Source of the DNA: a virus
Taxonomy: Duplodnaviria > Caudoviricetes
Virus record (IMG/VR): IMGVR_UViG_3300035182_002389
Coordinates: 96,001 to 160,000 of that record
Strand: one strand, 5' to 3'
Length of the DNA: 64,000 nt
Shown: one piece after another, positions 6,287-17,160 of the stretch
How positions within the stretch are numbered: the stretch's first letter is position 1
How the letters are laid out: each line of letters begins with the position of its first letter
Program-made: the position numbers and the translations under genes
Notes under the pieces: model-generated
What the model saw: the letters and a program-made list of their open reading frames with translations, nothing else
Told to the model about the DNA's origin: nothing
Databases searched by the model: none

Positions 6287-6451
6287 CGAGCGAAACGAGA
6301 GCGAGACGAGACGAGAGCGAGACGAGAGCGAGACGAGAGTGGGGGCTGCGCACCCCCACACCCCGCGCCACCTGCGGTGGGGCTACTGTTGGGGGCTCTG
6401 CCCCCAAACCCCCGCTGAGGGCGCTTTCAGCGCGCCCTCAGACTCCCGCCG
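6287..6451 (-). repeat. family-1 four-hairpin element, copy 3
   Basis: Core plus a long (GAGAC/GAGAGC)n tail; supplies the stop codon of CDS 6427-6975. Confidence 0.95.
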
Positions 6452-6975
6452 TTGCGGGCCTTGAGCGTCGCGATCTTCGACACGAGCGTGTCGTAGCCGC
6501 GCGGCGTCGGGACGGCCTTCGGAGCGGTCGCCATCATCGGACCCGGCACGCTGCTGGAGGGCGCGGCGACGGGCGCGGGGGCCTGCATGAGCACCTTGAA
6601 CTCGTCGACGACGGCCTGGAGGTTCTGCACGGCCGTCATCAGGTCGGCGATGACCTTCGAGAAGTCGGGGTTGCTCTGCTTCAGGTCGGCGGCGGCCTGC
6701 ACGGAGGCCTGCAAGGCGTCGACGGCGCTGTTGACCGCGAGAACGCTCTCGTCGAACTTCGCCTGCGCGACGGCCTGCTTGTCGGCCGGGATGGCGGGCT
6801 TGATGCTGCCGAACACGACCTCGGCGATCGAGAGGATGGTGCTGATCGACTGGATCAGGCTCTCGGTCTGCGCGACCGGGTCCTTCTGGAAGTTCGACCA
6901 CCACGTCGAGCAACTGGTGAGCGAGAGCACGGGGACGATGAGCGCGATGGCGGTGAACTTGTAGAGCTTTCGCAT
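6427..6975 (-). CDS. putative lipoprotein
   Basis: MRKLYKFTAIALIVPVLSLTSC lipobox-like signal; amphipathic helices; C-terminal GGSLRAR-stop comes from element copy 3. Confidence 0.7.
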   Translation of the reverse strand: MRKLYKFTAIALIVPVLSLTSCSTWWSNFQKDPVAQTESLIQSISTILSIAEVVFGSIKPAIPADKQAVAQAKFDESVLAVNSAVDALQASVQAAADLKQSNPDFSKVIADLMTAVQNLQAVVDEFKVLMQAPAPVAAPSSSVPGPMMATAPKAVPTPRGYDTLVSKIATLKARNGGSLRAR

Positions 6976-15236: not shown

Positions 15237-15268
15237 GGTCGCCATCGTACCACGGCGATCGCCCGCAT

Positions 15269-15283: not shown

Positions 15284-15311
15284 TGAGCGCGATTGAGCGT
15301 TTGACGTCATC

Positions 15312-15464
15312 CAAATCCGAATCCGAACCGCTGAACGAGACGAGCGAGAGAGCGGGGGCTGCGCACCCCCACACCCCGCGCCACCTGCGGTGGGGCCACT
15401 GTTGGGGGCTCTGCCCCCAAACCCCCGCTGAGGGCGCTCTCGGCGCGCCCTCAGACTCCTGCCG
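15312..15464 (-). repeat. family-1 four-hairpin element, copy 4
   Basis: Core plus CAAATCCGAATCCGAACC...GAGACGAGCGAGAG tail, between divergent genes. Confidence 0.95.
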
Positions 15465-15481
15465 TGATACCCTACCCTTCA

Positions 15482-16060
15482 ATGGCCAAGCGGGCGATCC
15501 TCCCCTACGTGCTCGGCGGAGCGGCGCTCCTCGGCGTCATCGTTCTTGCACGCCGAAGCAGCGCCCAGGCGCTCGCCCCAAGTCCGAGCGTGCGCACGTG
15601 GCCCGTGGTCCCCAACCGGGGCACCATCAGCGGGTTTGGGGCTCCGCGCCCTGCGGGAAAGTACCCCGCGCGCTACCACGCCGCCGTGGACGTCGGCGCG
15701 CAGGACGGGGACAAGGTCGTCGCGATCGACGACGGCGAAGTGCTCAAGCTCGTCACGGGCTACCAGATTGGCGCAGGCCTTCAAGCGGTCGCCATCCGTC
15801 ACCCCGACGCCGACTACATCTACGCCGAGATCCAGGTGACGGCGGTGCCCGGCCAGCGTGTCAAGGCGGGCGACGTCATCGGCGTCGTGCGCCAGAACGA
15901 CTCTGGTCCGGGGCACCAGATGCTTCACCTCGAAGCGTGGCAGACCGGGATGGTGCCGGACGCTTTCAAACCGTGGTACGTGGGCCAGGCCGCGCCGCCG
16001 GGCCTGCTCGACGTAGGCAAGATTCTCGCGCCCCTCGCGAACACGGGAGTGAAGCCGTGA
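15482..16060 (+). CDS. membrane-anchored M23 peptidase-like protein
   Basis: HAAVD (HxxxD), VxxGQRVKAGDVIG, MLHLE in place of HLHFE; N-terminal TM. Confidence 0.8.
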   Translation: MAKRAILPYVLGGAALLGVIVLARRSSAQALAPSPSVRTWPVVPNRGTISGFGAPRPAGKYPARYHAAVDVGAQDGDKVVAIDDGEVLKLVTGYQIGAGLQAVAIRHPDADYIYAEIQVTAVPGQRVKAGDVIGVVRQNDSGPGHQMLHLEAWQTGMVPDAFKPWYVGQAAPPGLLDVGKILAPLANTGVKP

Positions 16061-16221
16061 CCTTCATCCGAGCTGTTGAGAAGATCGCTCGGGGGGTTGC
16101 GCACCCCCCGAACCCCCGCGCCACCTGCGGTGGGACTTTTGTTGGGGCTCTGCCCCAAACCCTGCTGAGGGGCGCTTCCAGCGCGCCCCTCAGACTCCCT
16201 GCCGCGGGAGTGAAGCCGTGA
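16044..16221 (-). mobile_element. family-1 element, copy 5 (16061-16204), flanked by a 17-bp direct repeat
   Basis: CGGGAGTGAAGCCGTGA at 16044-16060 and 16205-16221. Confidence 0.85.
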
Positions 16222-16997
16222 GCCGCTCTCTTTCCGTCAAGGCCTCGCGCTGGTCAACCACGGAGATCGCCATGGCGGTCGGCGGAGGACTCCTTGCTGT
16301 CGCGGCTTTTGCGATCGCGAAGAAGACCTTCGAGCAACGCCCCCTCGCGGTCGGCAACTACTTCTTCCCGTTCCACGACGCCGAATACCTCAGCCCCGGG
16401 CAGAGTCTGGGTGGACAGGCCTTCGTCCCTCCCGGCGCGCGAGACAACGCCCGCCTCCTCGTCTACCTGCACGGCAACAACGACGGCGGCATGATGCACG
16501 GCGGGATGGGCGCGACCGACACGGCCTACGACCTTCGCAAGATCGTGCCTTCGGACACCATCGTCGCGGCGCCCAGCCAGACGCGAAACGCCTCGGGCGC
16601 GGGGCTCTGGGCGGGCTTCAACCTCGACGAGTTCGTTGCCGCGGTCGAGCGCGCGACAGGGGCCACGATCGACAAATCGCGCGTGATTCTCATGGGCCAC
16701 AGCGGCGCCGGATGCAGCTCGGTCGGCGGCCTCTTCGGCAAGCTCGGGGTCATCAAACCGCAGCTCGTCGCCGTCGTCGACGTCTGCGCGGGGCCCATGT
16801 ACGGAGAGGCATACGGCAGGCTCGCCGAACAAGTTCCCGTGCGCGTGTTCTACCAAACGCGCACGTGGTCGCGAGACTTCGCGGGCTTCCAAGCGGGCTT
16901 GAGGGGCCGCGCGACCTTCGAGGAGGTTCAGACCCCAGCCGGGCAGAGTCCCCACAGCGCCATCGTCCCCATCGTCGCGAAGATGGTGCTCACGTGA
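16218..16997 (+). CDS. membrane-anchored alpha/beta hydrolase
   Basis: YLHGN and GHSGAG nucleophile elbow; GTG start within the duplicated 17-mer. Confidence 0.7.
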   Translation: MSRSLSVKASRWSTTEIAMAVGGGLLAVAAFAIAKKTFEQRPLAVGNYFFPFHDAEYLSPGQSLGGQAFVPPGARDNARLLVYLHGNNDGGMMHGGMGATDTAYDLRKIVPSDTIVAAPSQTRNASGAGLWAGFNLDEFVAAVERATGATIDKSRVILMGHSGAGCSSVGGLFGKLGVIKPQLVAVVDVCAGPMYGEAYGRLAEQVPVRVFYQTRTWSRDFAGFQAGLRGRATFEEVQTPAGQSPHSAIVPIVAKMVLT

Positions 16998-17160
16998 GTC
17001 TCCCCCTTCCCGTTCCCGTTCCCGTTCCCAGCGTGCCGAAGGCGCGCGTTCCCCCTTCCCGAATCCCGCGCCGAAGGCGCGTCTCGGTCCTGCGAGCCCC
17101 CACAAGACGAGATCGGGAACGCTCGCTGCGCGAGCTGGCAACGGGAACGGGGACGGAAGC
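16998..17160. repeat. inverted pair of family-2 hairpin-(GGGAAC)n elements
   Basis: Minus-strand copy (TTCCCG)n...GCGTGCCGAAGGCGCGC and plus-strand copy CAAGACGAGATCGGGAAC-GCTCGCTGCGCGAGC-TGGCAACGGGAAC. Confidence 0.85.

What the first reader, a model, noticed from the sequence alone, without database searches (positions are those of the whole stretch)
16044..16221. 17-bp duplication around family-1 copy 5 preserves the RBS and start of the downstream gene
Seen: CGGGAGTGAAGCCGTGA occurs exactly on both sides of a 144-bp insert. The 17-mer contains the GGGAG SD, the M23 gene's TGA and the overlapping GTG start of the hydrolase, so removing the insert and one repeat restores a GTGA-coupled gene pair. 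The element end ACTCCC can also pair with the duplicated GGGAGT. Known: HUH (IS200/REP) insertion leaves no target duplication, DDE transposases give 2-13 bp, and long variable duplications with a simple-repeat tail are typical of target-primed reverse transcription. Inferred: direct footprint of a recent insertion by an unusual mechanism. The other copies show no such duplication.
Basis: partly seen in the sequence, partly recalled or inferred. Interest (0 to 1): 0.75.

Follow-up and report, generated by a model that had tools for sequence, protein, structure and literature searches.

The report
Hairpin repeat inserted between coupled genes
A 144-base gene-less hairpin repeat has landed exactly on the overlapping stop/start of two coupled genes of a 202-kb uncultured bacterial virus and copied the ribosome-binding site, stop and start to both sides. 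A sister strain carries a 31-base copy instead of 17, so this is not the fixed-length footprint of a special transposition enzyme.

Summary
The 17-mer is exact at 16044-16060 and 16205-16221, and it flanks a 144-bp copy of a four-hairpin repeat that has 12 copies in this 202.5-kb virus.

It is a true insertion. Eight contigs of relatives (62-94% protein identity) keep the M23 peptidase and hydrolase genes overlapping by 4 nt, and five of them have DNA showing the GTGA. Independent assemblies cover both junctions, so it is not an assembly artefact.

New points:
- A roughly 94%-identical strain (L089) has 15 extra bases at the right junction, making a 30-31-nt duplication. The 17 nt are therefore the trimmed, functionally needed remnant (ribosome-binding site plus start) of a longer duplication.
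- A 54-codon frame runs from the old GTG through the whole insert to the new TGA. The 15-nt difference keeps that frame, so a translational relay may be preserved.
- The virus encodes none of eight mobility-enzyme families searched, including reverse transcriptase and HUH nuclease.
- No other copy has flanking repeats.
- A neighbouring family-2 element replaced an intergenic spacer with no duplication.

A replicative or recombinational join with overlapping breakpoints, filtered by selection, is the most likely origin, but this is unproven.

The parts
15354..15464 (+). Family-1 copy 4, in the divergent gap between the lectin gene (start near 15245, minus strand) and the M23 gene.
   Evidence: It is 100% identical in strain L052. 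The closest relative with the empty copy-5 site has only 54 nt between these two genes, so it cannot hold this copy.
15482..16060 (+). M23 peptidase gene (192 aa from ATG 15482; stop TGA 16058-16060).
   Evidence: Pfam PF01551, E 5.7e-11. The length matches the 192-aa product of the 94% relative.
16044..16060 (+). Left copy of the duplicated 17-mer. It holds the last five M23 codons (T G V K P), the stop, the former ribosome-binding site and the former GTG start.
   Evidence: It is homologous to the GTGA junction of L001-L005.
16057..16221 (+). Bridging open frame of 54 codons. It starts at the old GTG (overlapping the M23 TGA), runs through the whole insert and stops at the TGA that overlaps the hydrolase GTG.
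   Evidence: It is the only one of three frames open across the insert. The 15-nt longer allele keeps the frame. That it is translated is inferred, not shown.
16061..16088 (+). Left leader of the insert: 17 bases unique in the genome (CCTTCATCCGAGCTGTT), then a short degenerate GA-rich stretch that corresponds to the (GAGAC)n tails of other copies.
   Evidence: It is not derived from the hydrolase 5' end.
16089..16204 (+). Four-hairpin core of family-1 copy 5. Hairpins lie at 16089-16111, 16113-16134, 16142-16158 and 16165-16193. The sharp right end ACTCCCTGCCG is at 16194-16204.
   Evidence: DNA fold -41.7 kcal/mol, z -4.9. Family alignment and consensus structure. The right end is shared by all full copies.
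16121..16143 (+). Hairpin 2 followed by GACTTTTGTT, a terminator-like site. It is created by substitutions specific to this strain.
   Evidence: L052 and the other copies read GGCTCCTGTT or similar at this place.
16205..16221 (+). Right copy of the 17-mer. It now serves as ribosome-binding site (GGGAG 16206-10) and GTG start (16218) of the hydrolase, and as the stop of the bridging frame.
   Evidence: In L089 it is preceded by 15 more bases, 14 of which repeat the M23 3' end.
16218..16997 (+). Hydrolase-like gene, 259 aa, with an N-terminal membrane anchor. It has no Pfam hit; some sources name relatives poly(3-hydroxybutyrate) depolymerase.
   Evidence: The N-terminal extension upstream of the internal Met is conserved in relatives, so the coupled start is the real one.

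Best explanation
One copy of a non-autonomous, four-hairpin, GC-rich repeat (family 1, 12 copies in this virus) was inserted into the 4-nt stop/start overlap (GTGA) of the M23 peptidase and hydrolase genes.

The event duplicated at least 30-31 nt of the M23 3' end. That length survives in a sister strain. In this genome a later 15-nt in-frame deletion trimmed the right-hand copy to the 17 nt that still matter: ribosome-binding site, spacer and GTG.

Shown: the insertion, its polarity (empty is ancestral), the variable length of the duplication, and the absence of a virus-encoded mobilising enzyme.

Inferred:
- The duplication was made by a replicative or recombinational join with overlapping breakpoints. 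One route is a polymerase that leaves the template after the TGA, copies an element from another locus or a co-infecting genome together with 17-28 nt of that donor's flank, and resumes about 31 nt behind where it left. An equivalent route is an illegitimate two-ended join. A dedicated enzyme cutting a fixed stagger is not needed.
- Selection let only a product survive that keeps both the M23 stop and the hydrolase ribosome-binding site and start. This explains why only this copy of the family shows a duplication.
- The 54-codon frame from the old GTG to the new TGA keeps a ribosome relay running across the hairpins.
For: - Empty site: 4-nt overlap in contigs of P0004 (94% identity), P0005, P0006, P0007, P0009, P0011 and P0014. 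DNA of L001-L005 shows G-rich site + GTGA.
- Both junctions appear in independent assemblies (records 4, 5, 11 and 20; L052; L089).
- L089 reads element end - T - ACCCCTCGCGAACA - 17-mer - hydrolase. Its 31-mer is identical to the M23 end in L052 from the same sample, including a strain-specific A.
- Other copies have no flanking repeat of 7 nt or more.
- The family-2 element just downstream (window 16998-17160) replaces a 19-nt spacer of L089 without any duplication and supplies its own purine-rich ribosome-binding site. Hairpin elements in this virus therefore usually arrive without a staggered-cut footprint.
- The left 17 nt of the insert are unique in the genome, which suggests a co-copied donor flank.
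- No RVT_1, Y1_Tnp, TnpB, HNH, phage integrase, rve, Cas1 or DDE_Tnp_1 was found in the virus.
- Bridging frame.
Against: - No donor locus carrying the 17 unique bases was found, so copying from a template is not shown.
- There is no clear microhomology at either junction.
- The host genome is unknown and could supply a transposase in trans.
- L052 and L089 are separate short contigs, so the 31-nt duplication is assembled from two contigs of one sample rather than read on one molecule.
- The chance that the bridging frame is open and ends at the TGA is about 1 in 9, or about 1 in 27 with the in-frame 15-nt difference. This was reckoned after the fact.
- The element copies are more conserved between strains than the genes, which hints at a function or mobility that this account does not explain.
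Confidence: 0.5

Rival explanations
1. A trans-acting transposase from the host or a co-infecting element mobilises family 1 and makes long, variable staggered cuts, as the DDE elements IS1549 and IS1634 do. The 17-nt and 31-nt duplications are then true target-site duplications, the shorter one trimmed later or made independently.
For: The flanking duplication is long and differs between strains. IS1549/IS1634 give direct repeats of 8-514 bp by an unexplained mechanism (PMC2266710). The family is polymorphic between close strains. The right end of the element is sharply defined in all copies.
Against: The element has no terminal inverted repeats. No other copy has any duplication. No DDE_Tnp_1 or rve gene is in the virus. 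The left end is ill-defined, with variable simple repeats and, in this copy, 17 unique bases.
Confidence: 0.17
2. The inserted unit was a larger cassette bounded by two family-1 copies: element - gene X' - ... - element. L052 shows its left part and L089 its right end. Recombination between the two elements later left the single hybrid copy seen in this window.
For: In L052 the same left junction and left half of the element are followed by the right half and right flank typical of genome copy G000:58890 and by a homologue of its downstream gene. That part is 87% identical, whereas the M23 side is 95%. Copy 5 is a mosaic of hairpin types.
Against: L052 may be a chimeric assembly through the repeat. 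No second contig carries gene X'. In G000 no family-1 copy lies on the far side of the gene X region. This account still needs an unexplained 31-nt duplication.
Confidence: 0.13
3. Two steps: a neutral tandem duplication of about 31 nt at the gene junction arose first by slippage. A duplication-free insertion, as with HUH/REP-type elements, then landed between the two copies.
For: Other copies show no duplication. A pre-existing tandem duplication would make the otherwise harmful site permissive. All copies between 58 and 122 kb lie on one strand and those at 0-11 kb on the other, as expected of single-strand transposition.
Against: It needs two rare events and an insertion exactly at the joint of the two copies, about 1 of 15 neutral positions. 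No relative shows the intermediate. No Y1 HUH gene is present. GC skew gives no origin between 11 and 58 kb.
Confidence: 0.1
4. One reading: target-primed reverse transcription of an element RNA with a simple-repeat tail.
For: The duplication is long and variable. Most copies carry a simple (GAGAC)n tail at one end and have one sharp end.
Against: The virus has no reverse transcriptase. In this copy the tail is degenerate and separated from the duplication by 17 unique bases. No other copy has a duplication. Hairpin modules are swapped between copies as in mosaic DNA repeats. This mode of spread with target duplications is not known in bacteria or their viruses (my own knowledge).
Confidence: 0.05

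Closest known systems
REP / BIME mosaic repeats and pneumococcal BOX/SPRITE-type small repeats (reviewed in PMC3184786)
   Same: They are gene-less, GC-rich and about 110-145 bp, and are built of hairpin modules that are swapped between copies. They lie between genes and usually carry no target duplication.
   Different: This family sits in a virus genome with no RAYT/HUH gene. This copy does carry a long flanking duplication and lies on a stop/start overlap.
Rickettsia palindromic elements (RPE; Ogata et al. 2000, as listed in PMC3184786)
   Same: They are similar in size (105-146 bp), palindromic, have no known enzyme, and are tolerated because an open frame runs through them.
   Different: RPEs sit in frame inside genes. 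Here the open frame is a separate mini-cistron between two genes, bounded by two copies of the GTGA overlap.
IS1549 / IS1634 (PMC2266710)
   Same: Their flanking direct repeats are long and of variable length (8-514 bp), and the mechanism is unexplained.
   Different: Those are 1.5-2-kb elements with a DDE transposase and terminal inverted repeats. This element has neither.
Templated insertions by template switching (MMBIR/FoSTeS; PMC8421209, PMC3678771)
   Same: A short stretch copied from elsewhere is inserted, with re-entry behind the exit point, which duplicates the flank.
   Different: These were described in yeast and human cells. Here neither a donor nor junction microhomology was found.
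Family-2 (GGGAAC)n hairpin repeats of the same virus (earlier scan notes e1-5321702 and e1-5323167)
   Same: Same genome, also gene-less hairpin repeats, and also present or absent between close strains.
   Different: The family-2 copy next door replaced the spacer and brings its own ribosome-binding site, with no duplication.

Membership tests
Classical MITE | Terminal inverted repeats | tested here: not met
   The left end (CCTTCATCC...) and the right end (...ACTCCCTGCCG) are not inverted copies of each other. The palindromes are internal.
Classical MITE | Target-site duplication of fixed length at every copy | tested here: not met
   17 nt here, 30-31 nt in L089, and none of 7 nt or more at the other copies.
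Classical MITE | Parent insertion sequence with matching ends and a transposase | tested here: not met
   No DDE_Tnp_1, rve, Y1_Tnp or TnpB in the virus. The host is not testable.
REP/REPIN with RAYT | Y1 HUH (RAYT) gene in the genome | tested here: not met
   PF01797 gave no match in the virus, while the controls matched. The host is unknown.
REP/REPIN with RAYT | Insertion without target duplication | tested here: inconclusive
   This holds for 10 other copies by flank comparison but not for this copy. No empty sites with DNA were available for the others.
Retroelement spread by target-primed reverse transcription | Reverse transcriptase available | tested here: not met
   PF00078 gave no match in the 94%-complete virus. 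The host is not testable with these tools.
Retroelement spread by target-primed reverse transcription | 3' tail directly abutting one copy of a variable duplication, at most copies | tested here: not met
   17 unique bases separate the tail remnant from the duplication. Other copies have tails but no duplication.
IS1549/IS1634-like DDE element | Long, variable direct repeats | tested here: met
   17 versus 30-31 nt.
IS1549/IS1634-like DDE element | Transposase gene and terminal inverted repeats | tested here: not met
Site-specific integration (att core repeat) | Recombinase present, and the same core carried by the element elsewhere | tested here: not met
   No phage integrase. The 17-mer occurs nowhere else in the genome.
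Casposon / Cas1-mediated integration (14-15-bp or repeat-length duplications) | Cas1 integrase | tested here: not met
   PF01867 gave no match.

The most novel reading that the evidence does not exclude
Family-1 hairpin elements are actively mobilised in this giant, probably tailless virus by an undescribed mechanism that produces long, variable flanking duplications. Candidates are a single-strand or replication-fork insertion of a hairpin-rich DNA, or an unknown enzyme. Their 3' double-hairpin module, which also occurs in Clostridia, Acetobacteraceae, Streptomyces and in an animal-like interspersed repeat, would be the recognition part of a very widely spread mini-element.
Probability: 0.12. 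Interest if true: 0.8.

Novelty: new variant of a known kind. Interest (0 to 1): 0.45.

Why it matters
This is a clean natural case, with empty, 31-nt and 17-nt alleles, showing that the small hairpin repeats filling the intergenic space of this unusual 202-kb virus really do move.

It also shows how a compact, translationally coupled genome can absorb such an insert. The stop, ribosome-binding site and start are duplicated, the surplus is trimmed away, and an open frame is kept across the hairpins.

There is a caution for repeat annotation. A flanking duplication seen in one genome can be the selected remnant of a longer one, so its length should not be used to infer the enzyme.

If the relay frame is translated, it would be a simple natural way to keep coupling across a structured insert.

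Tried and rejected
- GenBank phages (blastn) and IMG/VR (M23 and hydrolase peptides; two element patterns) gave no relatives.
- The hairpin 2-3 pattern gave nothing in species genomes.
- Exact look-ups of the window's own M23 and hydrolase proteins found nothing on record. Gene X' of L052 is on that contig only.
- The contigs of P0004, P0006, P0007 and P0009 have no retrievable DNA, so the closest empty allele is known only from gene coordinates.
- Rfam gave only a sub-threshold chance hit near the site and nothing on loci carrying the module.
- The idea that the insert's left 29 nt derive from the hydrolase 5' end was rejected: local alignment was no better than 16% of shuffles.
- The idea that they are the start of a gene lying between M23 and the hydrolase, as in L006, was rejected: the L006 lipase starts differently.
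- An internal ATG as a compensatory new start was rejected: the empty-allele relative P0004 has it too.
- GC skew gives no replication origin that would explain the strand switch of the family.
- Run X5 has no cover over 16056-16163, and a contig starts 14 nt before 16205. This fits either the empty or the 31-nt allele and is not counted as evidence.
- The 18-nt flank repeat at G000:3696 comes from a tandem paralogue pair, not a target duplication.
- A full-text search for the hairpin-3 sequence found no paper.

Full report
**What is there**

The window is bases 96001-160000 of a 202,518-bp IMG/VR virus record, 65% G+C and estimated 94% complete. The 17-mer CGGGAGTGAAGCCGTGA is exact at 16044-16060 and 16205-16221. 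It occurs nowhere else even with two mismatches, and 0 of 100 shuffles reached two matches.

The left copy is the end of an M23 peptidase gene (PF01551, E 5.7e-11; ATG 15482, TGA 16058-60). The right copy supplies GGGAG, a 7-nt spacer and the GTG (16218) of a 259-aa hydrolase-like gene. The N-terminal stretch ahead of the internal Met is conserved in relatives, so this coupled start is the real one.

The 144 bp in between are one of 12 copies of a repeat. Each full copy is built of four GC-rich hairpins, has a sharp right end (...CTCAGACTCC(C)YGCCG) and a variable GA-rich simple-repeat leader on the left. In this copy the leader is degenerate and is preceded by 17 bases found nowhere else in the genome.

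**It is a true insertion**

The hydrolase has many relatives in metagenomes. In the contigs of P0004 (94% identity), P0005, P0006, P0007, P0009, P0011 and P0014, the M23 and hydrolase genes overlap by exactly 4 nt. The DNA of L001-L005 shows a G-rich site followed by GTGA at the homologous place.

All outgroups are empty, so the filled state is derived.

Logan contigs of the source run cover both junctions: record 4 spans 15409-16193 and record 5 spans 16170-16787, both without differences. A diverged strain in run X3 covers the left junction, and run X4 covers the right one. An assembly artefact is therefore excluded.

**The duplication is not 17 nt everywhere**

Two JGI contigs come from one sample (3300032397) and are both about 94% identical to the window.

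- L052 carries copy 4, M23, the 17-mer and the same left junction. The first 84 nt of its insert are identical to the window.
- L089 begins inside the element. It reads element end - T - ACCCCTCGCGAACA - 17-mer - hydrolase.

The 14 extra bases repeat the M23 sequence just upstream of the left 17-mer, including an A that is specific to L052. In that strain the duplication is therefore 30-31 nt.

The simplest history is one insertion with a duplication of at least 31 nt. In the lineage of this window, a later 15-nt deletion (bounded by CG on both sides) removed the part of the right copy that has no function. The 17 nt that remain are the ribosome-binding site, spacer and start.

One caveat applies. 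The left and right junctions of that strain lie on two contigs, not one molecule.

**A frame through the insert**

From the old GTG (16057), 54 codons are open through the entire insert. They end at the TGA (16219-21) that overlaps the hydrolase GTG. The other two frames are closed. The 15-nt longer allele keeps this frame and ends it with the last ten M23 residues.

By chance this arrangement would be expected about once in 9, or about once in 27 if the in-frame indel is counted. That was reckoned after the fact, so it is only suggestive.

In the RNA fold, the GGGAGU of the left copy pairs with the ACUCCC end of the element, and the right junction is also partly paired. A translating ribosome could open these pairings. 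I therefore propose, as inference, a relay M23 -> mini-frame -> hydrolase.

**Mechanism**

The virus has no match to any of these families: RVT_1, Y1_Tnp, TnpB, HNH, phage integrase, rve, Cas1 or DDE_Tnp_1. The control genomes gave matches in each search.

No other copy has a flanking repeat of 7 nt or more.

Just downstream, a family-2 hairpin element (about 16998-17160) stands where L089 has a 19-nt spacer. It shows no duplication and brings its own purine-rich ribosome-binding site. Hairpin elements in this virus therefore normally arrive without a staggered-cut footprint.

Family-1 ends in an anti-Shine-Dalgarno-like ACTCCC. Placed in front of the hydrolase, it can only be tolerated if the native site is kept.

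Taken together with the co-inserted unique 17 bases, I favour a replicative or recombinational join with overlapping breakpoints, filtered by selection (confidence about 0.5). The rivals are:

- a trans-acting enzyme with long variable cuts, as for IS1549/IS1634 with repeats of 8-514 bp (PMC2266710);
- a larger cassette bounded by two elements and later reduced, which holds only if L052 is not chimeric;
- a tandem duplication followed by a duplication-free insertion;
- target-primed reverse transcription, which has nothing in its favour beyond the tail and the long repeat.

**Comparison with known elements and verdict**

The element resembles REP/BIME, BOX and RPE repeats (PMC3184786). It fails the defining tests of MITEs: it has no terminal inverted repeats and no fixed duplication. 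It also fails those of REPIN/RAYT systems, att-site integration, casposons and retroelements.

The finding is real and instructive, but it is not evidence for a new transposition chemistry. I score it 0.45 as a new variant of a known kind.

Earlier scan notes on this genome (e1-5321696, e1-5321702, e1-5321679, e1-5321713) described the repeat families and the virus.

Noticed in passing
window 16142-16199; loci L007-L088: The two 3' hairpins of family 1 (GGGGCTCTGCCCC - AAACCCC - CTGAGGG..CCCTCAG - ACTCCC) recur as a module of about 55 nt in 72 metagenome contigs and 10 species genomes. These include Clostridia/Oscillospiraceae MAGs (in tandem 150-bp units upstream of an nrdG-like gene), Acetobacteraceae and a Streptomyces. 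About 60 contigs of 39-50% G+C carry it inside a longer interspersed repeat with GGGAAG-rich tails; the five longest of these (8-12 kb) that I checked have no ORF over 191 codons, so they are probably animal DNA. There was no Rfam match. Whether this is common descent or convergence is unexplained.
   Followed up: partly
L052:800-1456 versus G000:58890-59518: Contig L052 joins M23 and the left half of copy 5 to the right half and right flank of the copy at 58.9 kb and a homologue of its downstream gene. That side is 87% identical, against 95% on the M23 side. It is either a real recombinant at the repeat or a chimeric assembly.
   Followed up: partly
window 16998-17160 versus L089:840-860: A family-2 palindromic (GTTCCC)n...(GGGAAC)n element occupies the hydrolase-to-next-gene gap here. 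Strain L089 has only a 19-nt spacer with its own GAGGAG at that place. There is no duplication, and the element's GGGAAC tail takes the place of the ribosome-binding site.
   Followed up: partly
window 15290-15480 versus L052:1-200: Copy 4 and its GA-rich leader are 99-100% identical between two strains whose adjacent M23 gene is 91-96% identical. The first 84 nt of copy 5 are likewise identical. The repeats are thus better conserved than the coding sequence, by selection, conversion or recent exchange.
   Followed up: no
G000:3696-4110 (outside the window): Two minus-strand family-1 copies of a second subtype (different hairpins 1 and 2) each precede one of two tandem paralogous genes that begin M/V-T-S-K/R-E-V-L-K-K-V-C-K-T-C-K. 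The element and the gene start were duplicated together.
   Followed up: no
window 6427-6451 and 1708-1710: By my crude GC3-based ORF map, the minus-strand ORF 6427-6975 runs 25 nt into the right end of a family-1 copy and stops at the TGA of its GTCTGAG. The ORF 1708-2730 stops at a TAG that overlaps another copy's end. The elements therefore abut or replace gene 3' ends.
   Followed up: no
G000:1-80 (outside the window): The record starts with a truncated family-1-like copy next to a run of about 18 G, so the contig end lies in a repeat or a sequencing artefact.
   Followed up: no
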